Positions 38,211 to 44,704 of a stretch of DNA of 64,000 bases are shown here, in pieces. Location: the IMG/VR virus record IMGVR_UViG_2706795949_000001, positions 1-64,000 of that record, one strand, 5' to 3'. Both the position numbers and the translations under genes were made by a program. Source of the DNA: a virus (lineage: Duplodnaviria > Caudoviricetes). Numbering within the stretch: the stretch's first letter is position 1; each line of letters begins with the position of its first letter. The notes beneath the pieces are model-generated. The model made no database searches and was not told the DNA's origin. It saw nothing but the letters and a program-made list of their open reading frames with translations.

Positions 38211-38912
38211 ATGCCTACCGTCATCGACTCCGGCTCCTACGTGCCCCCGCCCGCGATCCGCGCGGCGGGGCACGTGGGCAGCTTCGGATACCTCAGCACG
38301 TCGCGACCGGGCGCCAGTTTTTCGGGCAAGCCGATTACCCAGAATTGGGTAGACGACATGAAAAATAATGGCCTGGAAATCATTTCGTGCTGGCAGTACG
38401 GAAAAGATATCACCGCCGACTGGCGGCGCGGATTTAATGGAGGCGTGGCAGATGCGCAAGCAGCCGACCGACGACATAAATCTCTCGGCGGTCCTGAAGA
38501 TGCCCCTATCTATTTCGCTGTCGATAATGACATTGGTCAGCTTGATTGGCGCAGTAGCGTACGGGATTACCTTCGTGGCATTAACTCGGTTATTGGGGTT
38601 GAGCGAACCGGGGTGTACGGACATGACGAATGCTGTCGGTGGGCCGCGCAAGAGGGATTGATTGGCAGAACGCACGACGACAAGACCGGCAAGTTTTACG
38701 CCTGGCAAACCAAGGCGTGGTCCGAGGGGGATATTTTCTCGGGTACTTGCGTATTCCAGAGAATTGTCGACACACAGGCAAATCCTGGTCCGAAAATCAA
38801 CGGCTCAGCCGTTGACGTGAATGACATTTTGAGTCCCGATTACGGCCAGTGGAGCTTTCCGCGCGGAAATTGGGATTTCATTCTGACGCAAATGATGGGA
38901 ACGAGGGACTGA
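38211..38912 (+). CDS. Endolysin, glycoside hydrolase (DUF1906/GH25-like) catalytic protein
   Basis: GYLSTSRPG, WQYGK, IYFAVD, RTGVYG, WQT..WS, VDVN motifs; ends WDFILTQMMGTRD. Confidence 0.85.
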   Translation: MPTVIDSGSYVPPPAIRAAGHVGSFGYLSTSRPGASFSGKPITQNWVDDMKNNGLEIISCWQYGKDITADWRRGFNGGVADAQAADRRHKSLGGPEDAPIYFAVDNDIGQLDWRSSVRDYLRGINSVIGVERTGVYGHDECCRWAAQEGLIGRTHDDKTGKFYAWQTKAWSEGDIFSGTCVFQRIVDTQANPGPKINGSAVDVNDILSPDYGQWSFPRGNWDFILTQMMGTRD

Positions 38913-38913
38913 A

Positions 38914-39270
38914 GTGCAATATAAGCAATTCATTCCAGACGAGCTAATGGAGACCTCGCTTATCGAGGCCACCGAAATGGCTGTAGTAGAAAACCTTCGC
39001 GCAAGTCTGGCCGCCGATGACGACCCGGCTAACGACGATCACGAAATTCAGCTTGACCGCGCTCGCGGAAAAGATGCCCTGGGTCGCAATGGCATTTGGT
39101 TTGTCGGCACCGTGGACGCCGAACCTGAGCCCTATCCGGAGGTGCCTCGCGAAGAATTCGAGGTTGCCGGTGCAGTCAAGGCGCATGACGACGGCTTTGA
39201 ATTGCCGACCGATTACGAGGCGGACGACCCGTATCTTCTTGACCATCTTTACGGAAAGGGGCTGCGGTAA
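38914..39270 (+). CDS. Acidic hypothetical protein in the lysis cassette
   Basis: Tightly coupled between the two lysin genes; very Asp/Glu rich. Confidence 0.65.
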   Translation: MQYKQFIPDELMETSLIEATEMAVVENLRASLAADDDPANDDHEIQLDRARGKDALGRNGIWFVGTVDAEPEPYPEVPREEFEVAGAVKAHDDGFELPTDYEADDPYLLDHLYGKGLR

Positions 39271-39923
39271 TGGCATTCGTTAACGGCCCGCAAATGATGC
39301 GGGATATCGCGAATATGTGTCACGAGCGCTTCGGCACAACCATTGTTTATTCGCCTGGCTGGGAGACTCGCGGAAATGGACAGTCTTGGCCCGCTGGAGG
39401 CCCTAAGGGGTTTGTCGACCATCATACTGCTGGCGGGAATAATATTTATCTTGACCAGAACCTCATCTCCGGGGTTCCTGGACTTAGCGGCCCTCTGTGT
39501 AATTTCGCTGGCCTATACGACGGCGACCTTGCTTTGGTGGCGGCGTATCCGGCGAATCACGCGGGAGCATCGGGAGGATGGGATACTGCACCACTTCCCC
39601 GAACAGGAATGTTCAACCGAGAAGTTCTAGGTATTGAAATGCAGTACCGGGGCACAGAGCCAATGAGCCCCGAGCAATACCAGACACTGCTCGCGGTGAA
39701 TTTCTGTGCCGCCGAGGTTCTTGGGTGGGAAAAGGATTACCGCCGGATCAAGAACCACCAGGGCACGAGTATTCAGGGCAAGTGGGATATGGGGCGCGGA
39801 AATGGCGTCACGTACGACATTAACCAGATTCGTCGGGATATCGCCGCCAAGGGTGGCACCGCCGCAAACGACGACAAGACGTGGGACCGCGTGCTCACGC
39901 AAATGATGGGTACTTCGGCATGA
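39270..39923 (+). CDS. Endolysin, N-acetylmuramoyl-L-alanine amidase (Amidase_2)
   Basis: GWETRG, DHHTA, ANHAG, GIE, NHQ...KWD Zn-amidase motifs; ends WDRVLTQMMGTSA. Confidence 0.9.
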   Translation: MAFVNGPQMMRDIANMCHERFGTTIVYSPGWETRGNGQSWPAGGPKGFVDHHTAGGNNIYLDQNLISGVPGLSGPLCNFAGLYDGDLALVAAYPANHAGASGGWDTAPLPRTGMFNREVLGIEMQYRGTEPMSPEQYQTLLAVNFCAAEVLGWEKDYRRIKNHQGTSIQGKWDMGRGNGVTYDINQIRRDIAAKGGTAANDDKTWDRVLTQMMGTSA

Positions 39924-40156
39924 GTCAGGAAAATCTGCATCCCGCCACACAGGAATTGCTGGGGCATTTCGAGTACGGACACCTGCCGCAGTACCTGCAA
40001 ACGGTGTCGATGTATTTCAGGGACACCGCAGAAACGATGGTCACCAATCTCGGCGAGGGTCCGGAAACGTCCGCAGGTCTGCGAAAGCTGCTTGAAGCAA
40101 AAGACTGCTTTGTCCGACAGGCCGTGAAAAAGATGAAGGAGCACGACGCACAATGA
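39920..40156 (+). CDS. Small helical-hairpin protein (78 aa), possibly Acb2/Tad1-like
   Basis: ATGA overlap start at 39920; HFEYGHLP...GPETSAGLRKLLEAKDCFVR. Confidence 0.7.
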   Translation: MSQENLHPATQELLGHFEYGHLPQYLQTVSMYFRDTAETMVTNLGEGPETSAGLRKLLEAKDCFVRQAVKKMKEHDAQ

Positions 40157-40524
40157 GCGCAAAGGCAGTAGAGGGGCAATTCATGGGCGAGCCAGCAGGC
40201 GGACCGGCAAAGAATCTCGGGTGGCGCGGTCTCGCGCCGCAGCCCGACAATGACGGCAACCGCTGGTCCCAGTTCCGAATTGCCATGAAGTCCGAGGGTG
40301 GCGGAAATGTCGACCGGCAGACAATGGTTGAGGCGCTGGGCACCCTGGTTTTCGAGGCCACGCTCCGCATTAAGGCAGTCACCGACGTGGAAGCGGCCAA
40401 GGCGAAGACCGTGGACGCGAAGCTCGGTGAAACGGTTCTCGGCCACGCAGCAGTTGCGTCGGGCATGGGAATTGCCAACCACGATCTTCTCGTTGAAATC
40501 CGCGACCTACTCAAGTCCAAGTAA
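40153..40524 (+). CDS. Stand-alone lysin A C-terminal (cell-wall-binding-like) domain
   Basis: GQFMG...LGWRGL...QTMVEAL resembles the QLxG...GWxQL...TLVDA motif recalled from mycobacteriophage LysA C-termini. Confidence 0.55.
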   Translation: MSAKAVEGQFMGEPAGGPAKNLGWRGLAPQPDNDGNRWSQFRIAMKSEGGGNVDRQTMVEALGTLVFEATLRIKAVTDVEAAKAKTVDAKLGETVLGHAAVASGMGIANHDLLVEIRDLLKSK

Positions 40525-40539
40525 AAAGGATCACACATA

Positions 40540-40905
40540 ATGACCACCAAAATGCCCGATGAAGGGCAGTTCATCGAGGTCAGAAATCTCGACGGCAAGT
40601 CTGTCGAGATTGTGCGCAATATTCGTGACGTTGTTATCCGCTTGCGCGGAAAACCGTACGAAGAAGGCCAGCGAATGATCGGCTCGAATATTGTTGTTGA
40701 GGCTCGGGTTTATAATAACCAGACTCGACTGTTCGAGACCGATTGGATTAACGTTCCAGCAATGTCTGCCAGTGTTTATGCGGATGCAAATTCGTTTTGC
40801 ACGGCAGACATTCACGTGCATCCGCGTGAGCTAATTAACGTGGAAGCGCTTCTCATGAAAGAGGAGAAATACGATGACGACACCGAATCCGGTGGACCCG
40901 ACTAA
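40540..40905 (+). CDS. Hypothetical protein
   Basis: AAGGA RBS; 121-aa ORF in operon. Confidence 0.7.
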   Translation: MTTKMPDEGQFIEVRNLDGKSVEIVRNIRDVVIRLRGKPYEEGQRMIGSNIVVEARVYNNQTRLFETDWINVPAMSASVYADANSFCTADIHVHPRELINVEALLMKEEKYDDDTESGGPD

Positions 40906-41350
40906 CGATCCGCGTATCCCCGACCTCTCGAACGAGGCAGTAGCCGGACCGAACCTGTTCAATATCCGCACATGGCGTGATGTTATTGCCATGCTGTATG
41001 TGCTGGTGCCGCTGGCGAGCGTCATTCTCGTCAGCTATGGCGTATTCCAGTCCGAGGACGCCGCCGTTTTGGTCGGCGCAATCCTGGGCGTGTTGCAGGT
41101 TATTCTGCAATTTGCCCGCACTGCGGCGTGGGGCCGTCGCATTTTCTACACCGTGTTGCTTGCTGCAAATGCGGTGCTTGTCTGGTGGAAGGTTGTCGAC
41201 CCCGATTTCCTGAGCACCTGGCTCCCACTGATTAACGTTCTGCTCGTCGGTGCGCCCGCCGCAATTGCGGTGCAGAACGTGAATACCTCTGGCGACAATG
41301 TTGTTCCGCTGCGACCGCACGGAAGTGCCGGTCTGGATAACGCTGCATAA
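40874..41350 (+). CDS. Holin-like 4-TM membrane protein
   Basis: Four hydrophobic segments; GAGGAG RBS; downstream of the lysins. Confidence 0.75.
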   Translation: MTTPNPVDPTNDPRIPDLSNEAVAGPNLFNIRTWRDVIAMLYVLVPLASVILVSYGVFQSEDAAVLVGAILGVLQVILQFARTAAWGRRIFYTVLLAANAVLVWWKVVDPDFLSTWLPLINVLLVGAPAAIAVQNVNTSGDNVVPLRPHGSAGLDNAA

Positions 41351-41370: not shown

Positions 41371-41904
41371 ATGAACGCGGAAGCGCCGTACGGCATTCTA
41401 TCTATATGCACAGGAGTAGGTGCATTAGATATTGCCGTGCGGCGCTCTCTGCATAAAAAGGGCATCGACACAGAGTTTGTTGCATTCGTTGAGAATGATC
41501 CGAATTGCAGCAAAGTATTGAGGCACCATTACCCTAATGTTCCAAATCTGGGTGACCTCAAGTCTGTCGGGAATTGGGACGATTACCAGCATGTCAGGGT
41601 AATCACCGCAGGCTTTCCCTGTCAGCCCTTCTCTGTTGCAGGAAACAGATTAGGTGAAAACGATGACAGGTATCTTTGGCCGTTTATCGAAACGGCGATT
41701 CGCACAATTCGACCAGACTACATTTTCTTGGAAAATGTTGCGGGCTTTAGGTCGCAGGGGTTTGGGGGAGTCGCAGCCTCTTTGGCCGCCAACGGGTATG
41801 TTTTTCGATGGCATAGCGTACGAGCTGCTGATATTGGCGCGCCCCACAAGCGAGATCGAGTTTTCATCGTTGCCCGACCTGCTGCCGACACCGGTAGCGT
41901 CTGA
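41371..41904 (+). CDS. C5 cytosine DNA methyltransferase, alpha fragment (motifs I-VIII)
   Basis: CTGVG, AGFPCQPFS, LENV, HKRDRVF; stops after motif VIII. Confidence 0.9.
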   Translation: MNAEAPYGILSICTGVGALDIAVRRSLHKKGIDTEFVAFVENDPNCSKVLRHHYPNVPNLGDLKSVGNWDDYQHVRVITAGFPCQPFSVAGNRLGENDDRYLWPFIETAIRTIRPDYIFLENVAGFRSQGFGGVAASLAANGYVFRWHSVRAADIGAPHKRDRVFIVARPAADTGSV

Positions 41905-42262
41905 CGGCGGCGGTGCCAGCGGATTTGATCCAAAGCGGATTAGGCTCGCTGATTTTCCGTTTCACAGGCTGAATAACTGGGGGAAATATCTTCCCGCTAT
42001 TCAGCGATGGGAAACGGTCACACAGCTTGTGGCACCAAAGCCGCAAGTAATTGATTCACTAGGTCACCGGCAGATTAATCCTGAGTTCGTCGAATGGATT
42101 ATGGGTTTTACGCCGGGACATGTCACCGATCCGGCTATCGGGGCCTCCCGCGCCGCGCAGGTGACGATGCTCGGCAACTCGGTGGTATCCGCCGCCGCAG
42201 AGGACGCATACGATCACTGCCTGGACGCCTGGGAGGACTCCCCGGTGTCTCTAGGTGCCTGA
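41654..42262 (+). CDS. C5 cytosine DNA methyltransferase, beta fragment (motifs IX-X), overlapping alpha in another frame
   Basis: LLPTP, INPEFVEWIMGF, LGNSVV; AGGTGA RBS before the ATG at 41663. Confidence 0.85.
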   Translation: MKTMTGIFGRLSKRRFAQFDQTTFSWKMLRALGRRGLGESQPLWPPTGMFFDGIAYELLILARPTSEIEFSSLPDLLPTPVASDGGGASGFDPKRIRLADFPFHRLNNWGKYLPAIQRWETVTQLVAPKPQVIDSLGHRQINPEFVEWIMGFTPGHVTDPAIGASRAAQVTMLGNSVVSAAAEDAYDHCLDAWEDSPVSLGA

Positions 42263-43586: not shown

Positions 43587-43928
43587 ATGGGTGTTCAGGC
43601 TCTACTACAGCCCACACGAATTCAGAACATCGCCATTTATGAGGGCGCTGGCTTGAATTATATCTTTCGTCCGGATCAGGAAATTCCAGAGGGTGCGCTA
43701 GTTTTTATGCGCGCCTATTCCGGCAGAGATTTCAAGGGGCAAAGCTATGTCTCGGTGTGGACGGGGGAACGCACCGTCGACGGGCATTATCGTTTCGAGC
43801 AAGAAGATGACGTGATATACGATTCACGTATTGAGCATGGATCGGCATACAAGATTTACGTGCAGCCAGATATTCATGATCGGTCTACTCGAAAACCAGA
43901 ACAAACAGGAAGGTTCTTAATTCTGTGA
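43587..43928 (+). CDS. Hypothetical protein
   Basis: AGGAG RBS; 113 aa. Confidence 0.7.
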   Translation: MGVQALLQPTRIQNIAIYEGAGLNYIFRPDQEIPEGALVFMRAYSGRDFKGQSYVSVWTGERTVDGHYRFEQEDDVIYDSRIEHGSAYKIYVQPDIHDRSTRKPEQTGRFLIL

Positions 43929-44704
43929 GAACGCTCGTCATAATTTGCCGAGGGATTGGCGAACCACTCGGCACCGGAATGCTATGGAATGTTAAAAAGT
44001 TCCTGCCCGAGGACGTGTTCGATATTATCGAACTGAAGTGGCACGCTGAATACGGCCCGGTTCCCGGCATCATTGGCGATCCGTTTGAAAAGAACCTCGA
44101 AGACGGCGTTTCCCTTTTGCTCGACCTATGCACGAGTGTGTACCGGAACAGAAGGATCGTCGTGCTCGGCTACTCGGGCGGCGCGCAGCTCGCGGGCGAC
44201 GCGCTGGCGATCCTCGCGCGGCGTCCCGGCGACCATAACGTGGTCGGCGGCGTCCTGGTCAGCGATCCGTCGCAGCCCAAGGGCCAGCCGGGAGCCGGTC
44301 GGAAATACGGCATCCGAGGGTCGCGTCCCGTGCCGTCAGGAATTCCGGTGATTTGGTTCTTCGACACCAAGGACGTTATTTGCTGCTGCACACCGGAGCC
44401 CGATTCTCTAATGAGGCTCATTGCGGACGGCAGCGGCGAATTGTCGCTTGGCGGGCCGCGGGCGTGGTCGGGCAGTTTGGCTCGACTCAGGCTCAAGAAA
44501 TTTCAGAAGCACATTATTCCCTGGCGAATGCCAGATAAGATACTCCAGCAATTCAATACAGCGCGCTGGGAAATTGAGGGATATTTATTCAGGGGCGACC
44601 ACACGGAATACTGGAAGCGGACGAATTCCAGAACCGGAAACCAGTATTTCGTAGATATCGCCCGGTGGATTCGGAACGCCTCCGAGTTCACGCCGAGGCG
44701 TTAG
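43925..44704 (+). CDS. lysB: Lysin B (cutinase-like serine esterase)
   Basis: GYSGGA nucleophile elbow, LVSDP, DVICC. Confidence 0.88.
   Translation: MRTLVIICRGIGEPLGTGMLWNVKKFLPEDVFDIIELKWHAEYGPVPGIIGDPFEKNLEDGVSLLLDLCTSVYRNRRIVVLGYSGGAQLAGDALAILARRPGDHNVVGGVLVSDPSQPKGQPGAGRKYGIRGSRPVPSGIPVIWFFDTKDVICCCTPEPDSLMRLIADGSGELSLGGPRAWSGSLARLRLKKFQKHIIPWRMPDKILQQFNTARWEIEGYLFRGDHTEYWKRTNSRTGNQYFVDIARWIRNASEFTPRR

What the first reader, a model, noticed from the sequence alone, without database searches (positions are those of the whole stretch)
38211..40524. Putative modular multi-subunit endolysin: two separate enzymes share a C-terminal docking tag, and the binding domain is its own gene
Seen: the glycoside hydrolase ends W-D-F-I-L-T-Q-M-M-G-T-R-D and the unrelated amidase ends W-D-R-V-L-T-Q-M-M-G-T-S-A. 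They share 14 identical nt (ACGCAAATGATGGG at 38886-38899 and 39897-39910). Neither carries a cell-wall-binding domain. The 123-aa ORF at 40153 begins with a matching helix (VEGQFMG) and continues LGWRGL...QTMVEAL. Known (recalled): mycobacteriophage LysA C-terminal domains read roughly ILxQLxG...GWxQL...TLVDA, and heteromeric lysins exist (PlyC; CTP1L and Lys170 via internal starts). Inference: each enzyme kept only the first helix of this domain as a tag that plugs into an oligomer of the free domain, giving a plug-and-play holoenzyme with two catalytic activities. I know of no description of such a shared-tag system in actinophages.
Basis: partly seen in the sequence, partly recalled or inferred. 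Interest (0 to 1): 0.8.

Follow-up and report, generated by a model that had tools for sequence, protein, structure and literature searches.

The report
Shared docking tag on split phage lysins
In this Gordonia-type phage, two unrelated cell-wall-cutting enzymes each end in the same short peptide, which copies the first helix of a small, separately encoded lysin domain; the pattern recurs in every related phage checked, so the enzymes probably plug into that domain to form one multi-enzyme lysin, although binding has not been tested.

Summary
The glycoside hydrolase (38211-38912) and the amidase (39270-39923) both end in W-D-x-h-L-T-Q-M-M-G-T-x-x-stop. The 123-aa protein (40153-40524) starts with a helix carrying Q-F-M-G.

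The 14-nt identity is not remarkable in itself, because Met codons force most of it. The peptide is what matters.
- **Specificity:** in 1817 six-frame ORFs from the window and 22 related loci, a C-terminal Q/H-h-h-G tag occurs only on lysin subunits that lack this domain, plus one small acidic protein. All of these lie just upstream of the gene carrying the domain.
- **Spread:** it sits on three unrelated enzyme folds in at least six lineages.
- **Controls:** it is absent when all domains are fused, and absent from lysins that use LGFP-type domains.
- **Selection:** the linker before it varies freely and its third codon positions vary, so selection acts on the peptide.

New here: 13 of 14 fused enzyme-domain genes in relatives have an in-frame ATG or GTG with a Shine-Dalgarno core 6-10 codons before the motif. 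The free domain is therefore probably always made, as in the known two-product endolysins.

No binding test was possible, and the domain has no known fold or function. I found no published description. Other agents in this scan noted the same pattern on other genomes. I rate it a new variant of a known kind, interest 0.6.

The parts
38211..38912 (+). Lysin A subunit 1: Rv2525c-like (DUF1906) glycoside hydrolase, 233 aa, with no binding domain
   Evidence: PF08924 E 1.7e-38 over residues 15-184. phrog_13480 endolysin E 2.8e-119. The syntenic Camerico gene 32 is annotated 'lysin A, glycosyl hydrolase domain'.
38871..38909 (+). C-terminal tag of the hydrolase (W221 to D233): W-D-F-I-L-T-Q-M-M-G-T-R-D
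   Evidence: Translation. It forms a conserved island after a variable linker in 8 hydrolase homologues that are 38-73% identical to the window's. It is the top hit of the tag HMM.
38914..39270 (+). Small acidic protein (118 aa, pI 4.2) between the two enzymes. Its C-terminus is tag-like, with His in place of Gln (L-L-D-H-L-Y-G-K). It is a possible third client or a regulator.
   Evidence: phrog_18568, function unknown. Syntenic acidic proteins in 8 relatives all end h-x-x-H-[LM]-h-x-K. It matches the loose tag regex but not the Gln-tag HMM.
39270..39923 (+). Lysin A subunit 2: N-acetylmuramoyl-L-alanine amidase (Amidase_2), 217 aa, with no binding domain
   Evidence: PF01510 32.9 bits against a cut-off of 26, residues 45-175. 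phrog_880 endolysin E 9.4e-48.
39882..39920 (+). C-terminal tag of the amidase (W205 to A217): W-D-R-V-L-T-Q-M-M-G-T-S-A
   Evidence: Translation. It is conserved after a variable linker in 9 amidase homologues that are 48-83% identical to the window's, including the Woes/TIN/GTE7 group.
39920..40156 (+). 78-aa insert gene (phrog_5120) between the amidase and the stand-alone domain. It is probably not part of the lysin and is a variable 'moron' slot.
   Evidence: phrog_5120 E 1.9e-34. Its homologue lies after the domain gene in Camerico (gene 36). The slot holds an HNH endonuclease in GMA3 and an unrelated 88-aa gene in GordDuk1.
40153..40524 (+). Stand-alone lysin C-terminal domain (CTD, 'hub'), 123 aa. 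Its function is unproven; I propose it acts as an oligomerising and/or wall-targeting module.
   Evidence: phrog_18341 E 1.3e-66, and a match to the C-terminal part of phrog_6985 endolysin (183-274 of 278). tblastn hits the C-termini of fused LysA proteins in 106-118 phage records. AF2 with a 31-sequence MSA gives pLDDT 79.1 and pTM 0.58. No PDB sequence or fold match.
40159..40191 (+). N-terminal motif helix of the CTD (A3 to E13, with the core Q-F-M-G). This is the element that the tags copy.
   Evidence: Predicted helix at residues 3-11. Q9 and G12 are nearly invariant across 31 family members. These CTD N-terminal motifs are the best non-self hits of the tag HMM, ranking 8-11 of 1519 frames.
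40874..41350 (+). Holin of the same cassette
   Evidence: PF23809 32.4 bits against a cut-off of 27; phrog_565 holin E 1.2e-35.
43925..44704 (+). Probable lysin B (cutinase-like esterase). It has no tag, so it is not predicted to be a client of the hub here.
   Evidence: Weak Cutinase and Abhydrolase_6 hits below the cut-offs. It is syntenic with Camerico gene 44, 'lysin B'. Its C-terminus does not match the tag regex.

Best explanation
The cassette encodes a split lysin A whose parts probably reassemble after translation.

**The hub.** The 123-aa C-terminal domain (CTD) is made as a free polypeptide. It acts as a shared hub that probably oligomerises, and it may also target the cell wall.

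**The clients.** The hydrolase and the amidase have no such domain. Each carries, after a flexible linker, a 13-residue amphipathic peptide at its extreme C-terminus: W-[DN]-x-h-x-x-Q-[MLF]-[MLF]-G-x-x-x-COOH. This peptide mimics the CTD's own first helix ([DE]-V-x-x-Q-[FL]-[MLR]-G). The proposal is that the tag docks on the CTD where, or in the way that, that helix packs. Several catalytic activities would then share one hub.

**Relatives.** One enzyme is fused to the CTD there. A conserved internal start is predicted to make extra free CTD as well. Any further enzyme that lacks the CTD carries the tag.

**Shown:** the sequence pattern, its specificity, its conservation, its co-occurrence with this domain family, and the internal start signals.

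**Inferred:** physical docking, oligomerisation, stoichiometry, and any role in targeting or timing.
For: 1. **Same tag on unrelated folds.** It sits on the Rv2525c-like hydrolase, on Amidase_2 and on an M15-type peptidase. The phages are the window, GMA3, Camerico, GordDuk1/Gmala1, Perlina, Nocardia NC1, Yvonnetastic, the Woes/TIN4/GTE7/Eggsie/PokyPuppy/Demosthenes groups, and two metagenome contigs, L021 and L022.
2. **Specificity.** A C-terminal regex hit 32 of 1817 six-frame ORFs. Every hit was a lysin subunit lacking the CTD, or the acidic protein, and lay immediately upstream of the CTD gene. None of the other 1785 ORFs matched.
3. **Co-occurrence.**
   - Every enzyme lacking the CTD that lies next to a gene for this CTD has the tag.
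   - Phages with one all-fused lysin carrying this CTD (ReqiDocB7, CoffeeBean) have no tagged enzyme.
   - Homologous hydrolases fused into LGFP-type lysins (Paries, Orchid, Shagrat), and the P19 hydrolase, have no such motif in the CTD-less enzyme or at the fused-domain junction.
4. **Selection on the peptide.** A linker of variable length and sequence precedes a conserved W...Q-x-M-G island, at only 38-53% overall identity in the more distant lineages. Third codon positions of Gln, Gly, Thr and Leu vary.
5. **Mimicry.** An HMM built from 17 tags found the CTD N-terminal motifs of four phages as its best non-self hits, ranks 8-11 of 1519 frames. Q9 and G12 are nearly invariant in the CTD family.
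6. **The free CTD is probably always made.**
   - 13 of 14 fused genes have an in-frame ATG or GTG with a GGAG/GAGG core 6-10 codons before the Gln. The rate at other in-frame ATG/GTG codons is 12 of 143.
   - Wherever Val replaces Met at that position, the codon is GTG, in 6 of 6 cases.
   - The predicted product starts like the stand-alone CTDs.
   - Two-product endolysins that multimerise through the binding domain are established (PMC9430671, PMC4777826).
7. **Co-expression.** The five genes from 38211 to 40524 abut or overlap at their stop and start codons, which is consistent with co-expression.
Against: - There is no interaction data of any kind.
- The CTD has its own copy of the helix, so it is unclear which site a tag would occupy.
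- The individual HMM E-values for tag against CTD motif are weak (0.6-3). The support comes from rank and from a repeated position in homologous proteins, which are not independent observations.
- The tag is amphipathic and could bind membrane or another partner instead.
- The lineages are related phages, giving roughly 6-8 independent comparisons at most.
- The CTD's function is unknown. The only fold similarity is a generic helical hairpin with Z of 5 or less.
Confidence: 0.55

Rival explanations
1. Common third partner. The tag and the CTD's first helix do not bind each other. Each binds the same outside partner, such as the cytoplasmic membrane, a holin, a host chaperone or export factor, or a wall component. 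Every lysin polypeptide therefore needs one copy.
For: Every lysin polypeptide in these cassettes, fused or not, carries exactly one copy of the motif. By my helical-wheel reading of the sequence, the tag is an amphipathic helix with a W-I-L-M-M face, as membrane-targeting helices are.
Against: In fused proteins the motif always lies 5-14 residues before the G-W start of this one domain family. It never accompanies LGFP-type lysins in phages of the same hosts. That ties it to the CTD rather than to a general host partner.
Confidence: 0.2
2. Regulatory tail. The tag is a degron, an autoinhibitory peptide, or the binding site for the small acidic protein, and it keeps the enzymes inactive until the holin fires. 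Its likeness to the CTD helix would be incidental or inherited.
For: A conserved acidic protein (pI about 4.2) lies next to the tagged amidase in both large groups, and it ends in a related H-[LM] motif. Extreme C-terminal peptides often serve as degrons (general knowledge).
Against: Perlina, NC1, Yvonnetastic, L021 and L022 have tagged enzymes with no clear acidic-protein homologue beside them. This reading also does not explain the strict link to the CTD family.
Confidence: 0.1
3. Evolutionary scar or recombination junction. The tags are what is left after 3' truncation of former enzyme-CTD fusions, or they are conserved boundary sequences that help modules shuffle at the DNA level. They have no role in the protein.
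For: Fused and split forms interconvert among relatives. Mobile genes (an HNH endonuclease and small ORFs) sit at exactly this junction. The 14-nt identity within the window could support recombination.
Against: Conservation is at the amino-acid level with synonymous variation. The adjacent linker has diverged freely while the tag has not. The tags share Trp at -6 and a fixed distance to the C-terminus, which the CTD helix lacks. A neutral scar would not persist on three enzyme folds at 38-50% identity.
Confidence: 0.08
4. Translation signal. The 3' end of each gene is conserved because it holds the ribosome-binding site of the tightly coupled downstream gene.
For: The last codons, for example GGA-ACG-AGG-GAC, are purine-rich and lie 4-12 nt before the next start codon.
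Against: The conserved Trp and Q-M-M-G core lie 12-40 nt upstream of the stop, too far for a Shine-Dalgarno site. Third positions vary. The downstream genes differ between lineages.
Confidence: 0.03

Closest known systems
Two-product endolysins with an internal translation start (CTP1L, CD27L, Lys170, phi2638A and Ms6 LysA types; PMC9430671, PMC4777826, PMC12203907)
   Same: In these systems the binding-domain polypeptide is also made on its own and joins the full-length enzyme in a hetero-oligomer. The fused relatives of this cassette carry a conserved in-frame ATG or GTG with a Shine-Dalgarno core exactly at the start of the CTD.
   Different: In this window the domain is a separate gene, and neither enzyme contains it. 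The proposed attachment is through a 13-residue C-terminal peptide rather than through domain-domain contacts. No sequence or fold relation to those binding domains was detected.
PlyC of streptococcal phage C1 (PlyCA catalytic subunit plus a PlyCB octamer, encoded by two genes; from my own knowledge and as cited in reviews found)
   Same: The catalytic and binding subunits are encoded by separate genes of one lysis cassette and form a holoenzyme with more than one catalytic activity.
   Different: PlyC has one catalytic chain carrying both activities, and it docks through a dedicated internal domain. Here two or three separate enzymes each carry the same short terminal tag. There is no sequence similarity to any PDB chain at E up to 10. 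The hosts and the phage lineage also differ.
Split lysin A genes of Gordonia phages (PMC5559632, PMC9671378, PMC4524720)
   Same: This cassette is an example. The relatives' genes are annotated 'lysin A, glycosyl hydrolase domain', 'lysin A, N-acetylmuramoyl-L-alanine amidase domain' and 'lysin A, protease M23 domain'.
   Different: Those papers record the split and say its significance is unknown. In what I read of them (term searches, not the whole text) I saw no mention of a shared terminal peptide, of the stand-alone C-terminal domain as a partner, or of internal starts.
Dockerin-cohesin assembly of cellulosomes (analogy only, from my own knowledge)
   Same: The logic is the same: unrelated enzymes carry a common small terminal module that plugs them into a shared scaffold.
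   Different: There is no homology, and Pfam found no dockerin or cohesin. The tag is far shorter than a dockerin, and scaffold binding is unproven.

Membership tests
Split lysin A cassette of actinophages | Peptidoglycan-hydrolase domains that sit in one LysA elsewhere are encoded by separate adjacent genes next to a holin | tested here: met
   PF08924 hydrolase, PF01510 amidase and PF23809 holin all lie within 38211-41350. The same hydrolase is the N-terminal domain of 580-590-aa LysA proteins in Paries, Orchid and Shagrat.
Rv2525c-like glycoside hydrolase (PF08924 / DUF1906) | Pfam score above the gathering threshold | tested here: met
   133.2 bits against a cut-off of 27.2.
Amidase_2 (PF01510) | Pfam score above the gathering threshold | tested here: met
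   32.9 bits against a cut-off of 26.
Two-product (internal start) multimeric endolysins | An in-frame internal start codon with a ribosome-binding site between the catalytic and C-terminal domains | tested here: met
   Met in the fused relatives: 13 of 14 genes, against 12 of 143 at other in-frame ATG/GTG codons. In the window itself the same product comes from a separate gene.
Two-product (internal start) multimeric endolysins | The short product is actually made and oligomerises with the full-length enzyme | not testable with these tools
   This needs protein analysis (N-terminal sequencing or MS, SEC-MALS). No multimer prediction was available.
PlyC-type two-gene holoenzyme | Sequence similarity to PlyCA or PlyCB | tested here: not met
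   phmmer and profile searches of all PDB chains at E up to 10 returned no PlyC chain.
PlyC-type two-gene holoenzyme | Fold similarity of the hub to PlyCB | tested here: inconclusive
   Foldseek and VIA-align found no convincing match. The best Z was 5.0, on a helical hairpin only.
PlyC-type two-gene holoenzyme | A stable complex between the separately encoded catalytic and binding subunits | not testable with these tools
   This needs co-purification or a structure.
Known cell-wall-binding domains (LGFP, PG_binding, LysM, SH3 and others) | The 123-aa protein matches a curated binding-domain family | tested here: not met
   No Pfam family at E up to 0.1. Only PHROG lysin families match. Wall binding remains an assumption.

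The most novel reading that the evidence does not exclude
A dockerin-like peptide code for phage lysis. A 13-residue C-terminal helix lets any peptidoglycan hydrolase, and perhaps a small acidic regulator, be recruited non-covalently to an oligomeric hub domain of a new fold. Phages of Gordonia, Rhodococcus, Nocardia and Tsukamurella could then swap catalytic modules freely while keeping a single targeting and assembly module. The fused, internal-start and fully split forms would be interchangeable states of one system.
Probability: 0.5. Interest if true: 0.75.

Novelty: new variant of a known kind. Interest (0 to 1): 0.6.

Why it matters
Heteromeric endolysins are known in only two forms: PlyC, and single genes with internal starts. 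In both, assembly goes through whole domains. A short transferable tag that recruits unrelated enzymes to a shared hub would be a third way to assemble a lysin.

It would answer a question the Gordonia phage literature leaves open, namely why lysin A is so often split (PMC9671378). It would also give an obvious handle for engineering multi-activity lysins against mycolic-acid bacteria: add the tag to an enzyme and supply the hub.

In addition, it corrects annotation. The stand-alone domain is labelled 'peptidase' or 'hypothetical' in public records, yet it has no catalytic domain. The hypothesis can be tested directly with ordinary co-expression and phage-engineering experiments in Gordonia terrae.

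Tried and rejected
- **DNA repeat as the signal:** rejected. Two Met codons force most of the 14-mer, and by my arithmetic about 8 exact 14-mer pairs are expected by chance in 64 kb. A third near-copy at 39288-39301 (2 mismatches) encodes P-Q-M-M-R in the amidase N-terminus and is probably chance.
- **Link to mycobacteriophage LysA C-terminal domains:** not reproduced.
  - tblastn with three different family members found only Gordonia, Rhodococcus, Tsukamurella and Nocardia phages, up to E = 1 with one query and 1e-2 to 1e-3 with the others.
  - phmmer against 1.84 billion representatives gave only 12 hits.
- **Known fold or function for the 123-aa domain:** nothing found.
  - Pfam: no hit.
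  - PDB by sequence: none for the single protein; the profile search gave only weak matches to unrelated proteins, best E 0.086.
  - Foldseek against PDB: no match.
  - VIA-align wide search: Z of 5 or less, on a helical hairpin only.
  - ESM Atlas: uninformative, because its own model is poor.
  - BFVD: returned only family members.
- **First AF2 run:** it used 6 sequences and was unusable (pLDDT 52). The second run, with 31 sequences, gave pLDDT 79, but no coordinates or PAE were available, so I could not read the helix's contacts.
- **Prophage copies:** none found in one genome per species of the genome collection.
- **Gene context of six metagenomic stand-alone homologues:** I used a metagenome scan instead, which gave two loci.
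- **Acidic protein as a true tag bearer:** the Gln-tag HMM does not retrieve it, and BLAST between the two groups' acidic proteins is not significant (E 0.27). I kept it only as a side note.
- **Lysin B as a client:** its C-terminus carries no tag in this window.
- **One script with hand-typed tags:** I rebuilt the tag set from the loci instead.
Full report
**What is there**

The window is a 64-kb piece of a roughly 78-kb Gordonia-type siphophage (contig length). Its nearest public relatives are Camerico, GMA3 and the GordDuk1/Gmala1/GordTnk2 group.

After the tail genes lies a lysis cassette of tightly abutting plus-strand genes:
- 38211-38912: an Rv2525c-like glycoside hydrolase, 233 aa (PF08924, E 1.7e-38).
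- 38914-39270: a 118-aa acidic protein of unknown function (phrog_18568).
- 39270-39923: an Amidase_2 enzyme, 217 aa (PF01510, 32.9 bits against a cut-off of 26).
- 39920-40156: a 78-aa gene (phrog_5120).
- 40153-40524: a 123-aa protein with no Pfam hit. It matches phrog_18341 and the C-terminal third of phrog_6985 'endolysin'.
- 40540-40905: a 121-aa gene.
- 40874-41350: a holin (PF23809).
- 43925-44704: a probable lysin B.

**Checking the observation**

The DNA identity carries little weight. Two Met codons and the first two bases of Gly force most of it, and by my arithmetic about eight exact 14-mer pairs are expected in 64 kb by chance. The real observation is at the peptide level: two unrelated folds end in W-D-x-h-L-T-Q-M-M-G-T-x-x, and the 123-aa protein begins with a helix that carries Q-F-M-G.

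**Is the tag more than chance or a scar?**

I translated the cassettes of 15 named phages and two metagenome contigs. The tag has this form: W or another aromatic or hydrophobic residue, two to five residues, then Q, two hydrophobic residues and G, then two to four residues and the stop. It is present on the following proteins:
- the hydrolase and the amidase of GMA3, Camerico and GordDuk1/Gmala1;
- the hydrolase of Rhodococcus phage Perlina, Nocardia phage NC1, and contigs L021 and L022;
- the M15-type peptidase gp47 of Yvonnetastic;
- the amidase of Woes, TIN4, GTE7, Eggsie, PokyPuppy, Demosthenes and four further members of that large group.

Four further results bear on this.
- **Specificity.** A regex for the tag at the C-terminus matched 32 of 1817 six-frame ORFs from the window and 22 loci. 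Every match was one of these enzymes or the acidic protein, and none of the other 1785 ORFs matched.
- **Linker against tag.** In alignments, the catalytic domain is followed by a linker with no conservation and variable length, and then by the conserved W...Q-x-M-G island. This holds even at 38-42% identity for the distant hydrolases and 48-53% for the distant amidases.
- **Codons.** Third codon positions of Gln, Gly, Thr and Leu differ between phages, so selection acts on the peptide and not on a DNA site.
- **Tag-specific features.** The Trp six residues before Gln, and the chain ending just after Gly, are common to tags on different enzymes but absent from the domain's own helix. That argues against a passive remnant.

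**Link to the stand-alone domain**

The 123-aa protein is homologous to the C-terminal domain (CTD) of LysA proteins in 106-118 phage records from Gordonia, Rhodococcus, Tsukamurella and Nocardia hosts. In those records it is fused to M23, Amidase_2 or GH19 domains. The family is small, with 12 representatives at 50% identity among 1.84 billion proteins.

In all members the domain begins with [DE]-V-x-x-Q-[FL]-[MLR]-G, 5-14 residues before an invariant G-W, and Q9 and G12 are nearly invariant. An HMM built from the 17 distinct tags was searched against 1519 stop-to-stop frames. After the tags themselves, it ranked the CTD N-terminal motifs of Yvonnetastic, Perlina, L022 and ReqiDocB7 next, at ranks 8-11. 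The individual E-values are weak (0.6-3.2).

The co-occurrence is clean:
- Every enzyme that lacks the CTD and lies beside a CTD gene has the tag.
- Phages whose single lysin already contains the CTD (ReqiDocB7, CoffeeBean) have no tagged enzyme.
- The homologous hydrolases built into GH-amidase-LGFP lysins (Paries, Orchid, Shagrat), and the P19 hydrolase, have no such motif.

**A new supporting point: internal starts**

In the fused relatives, an in-frame ATG or GTG lies 6-10 codons before the motif's Gln, with a GGAG or GAGG core 4-14 nt upstream, in 13 of 14 genes. In 8 of those it is the only such site in the gene. At other in-frame ATG/GTG codons the rate is 12 of 143. Wherever the residue at that position is Val, the codon is GTG, in 6 of 6 cases. 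The predicted short product starts just like the stand-alone CTDs, with M-S/A-x-A-x-D/E-V.

Free CTD is therefore probably made in every phage of this family, either from its own gene or from an internal start. That is the hallmark of the known two-product endolysins, which multimerise through their C-terminal domain (PMC9430671, PMC4777826).

**Structure**

AF2 with 6 sequences failed (pLDDT 52). With 31 sequences it gave pLDDT 79.1 and pTM 0.58. The predicted elements are:
- helix 3-11, which is the motif;
- a beta-hairpin at 13-24, around the G-W;
- helices at 40-44, 58-70 and 79-85;
- a long C-terminal helix at 95-122.

Foldseek found no PDB match. The wide structural search gave only helical-hairpin similarities with Z of 5 or less. 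BFVD returned only family members. The domain is thus not assignable to any known binding or oligomerisation fold, and 'cell-wall binding' remains an assumption. No multimer prediction or coordinates were available, so the central claim, that the tag binds the CTD, is untested.

**Mechanism I favour (about 0.55)**

The CTD is a free, probably oligomeric hub. Enzymes join it either covalently, in the fused forms, or through the C-terminal tag that mimics the hub's first helix. The result would be one complex with two or more bond specificities.

**Rivals**
- The motif binds a common third partner such as membrane or holin (0.2).
- It is a regulatory tail or a site for the acidic protein (0.1).
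- It is a scar or a recombination junction (0.08).
- It is a downstream ribosome-binding site (0.03).

The evidence for and against each rival is given in its own section.

**Comparison with what is known**

Split lysA genes in Gordonia phages are published, but their significance is described as unknown. In what I read of those papers (term searches, not the whole text) I saw no mention of a shared terminal peptide or of the CTD as a partner. Searches for heteromeric or separately encoded endolysins returned only the PlyC and internal-start systems.

This looks like a new variant of the heteromeric-endolysin idea, in phages whose genomes are already public. After I had reached this reading, a look-up showed that other agents of this scan had reported the same pattern on other genomes. 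One of those notes extends it to mycobacteriophages and lysin B. I could not confirm that for this domain family, and the lysin B in this window has no tag.

**Limits**

There is no experimental or multimer evidence.

Noticed in passing
window 38914-39270; also L007:2509-2829, L008:1584-1910, L020:2512-2835, L027:1045-1365, L028:1027-1353: A small acidic protein (106-121 aa, pI 4.1-4.5) lies immediately upstream of the tagged amidase in both the window group and the Woes/TIN group. It always ends in a tag-like h-x-x-H-[LM]-h-x-K motif, with His where the tags have Gln. It could be a third client of the hub or an inhibitor or chaperone of the lysin. Homology between the two groups' proteins is not significant by BLAST (E 0.27).
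   Followed up: partly
L004-L008, L014, L017-L022, L027, L028 (fused enzyme-CTD genes of relatives): A conserved in-frame ATG or GTG with a Shine-Dalgarno core lies at the start of the C-terminal domain in 13 of 14 fused lysin genes. This predicts that these annotated single-product lysins make two products. The records I fetched do not annotate it.
   Followed up: yes
window 40153-40524 and its homologues in GMA3, GordDuk1, Gmala1 and GordTnk2: RefSeq labels the stand-alone C-terminal domain 'peptidase', and phrog_18341 carries the same label. No peptidase domain is detectable. The label probably spread from homologues fused to M23.
   Followed up: partly
window 39920-40156, compared with L001:7638-8120, L002:4374-4595 and L003:3724-3990: The slot between the amidase and the CTD gene is a variable insertion site. 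It holds a 78-aa phrog_5120 gene here, an HNH endonuclease in GMA3 and an unrelated 88-aa gene in GordDuk1. The phrog_5120 homologue sits after the CTD gene in Camerico. By eye, the GordDuk1 88-aa protein resembles the window's 121-aa ORF at 40540-40905.
   Followed up: no
window 41371-41904 and 41654-42262: A C5-type DNA methyltransferase appears to be split into two overlapping ORFs in different frames. Camerico and GordDuk1 have similar two-part annotations. This could be a frameshift, a programmed shift or a true split.
   Followed up: no
P0012 (183 aa, from the protein collection, Pfam): A database protein joins an N-terminal NADPH-dependent FMN reductase domain (PF03358) to the C-terminal two-thirds of this lysin domain. 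It may be an assembly chimera or the junction of a prophage remnant.
   Followed up: no
window 39288-39301: A third near-copy of the 14-mer (2 mismatches) encodes P-Q-M-M-R at residues 7-11 of the amidase. The peptide is conserved in the four window-group amidases. It is probably part of the catalytic fold and a chance likeness.
   Followed up: partly
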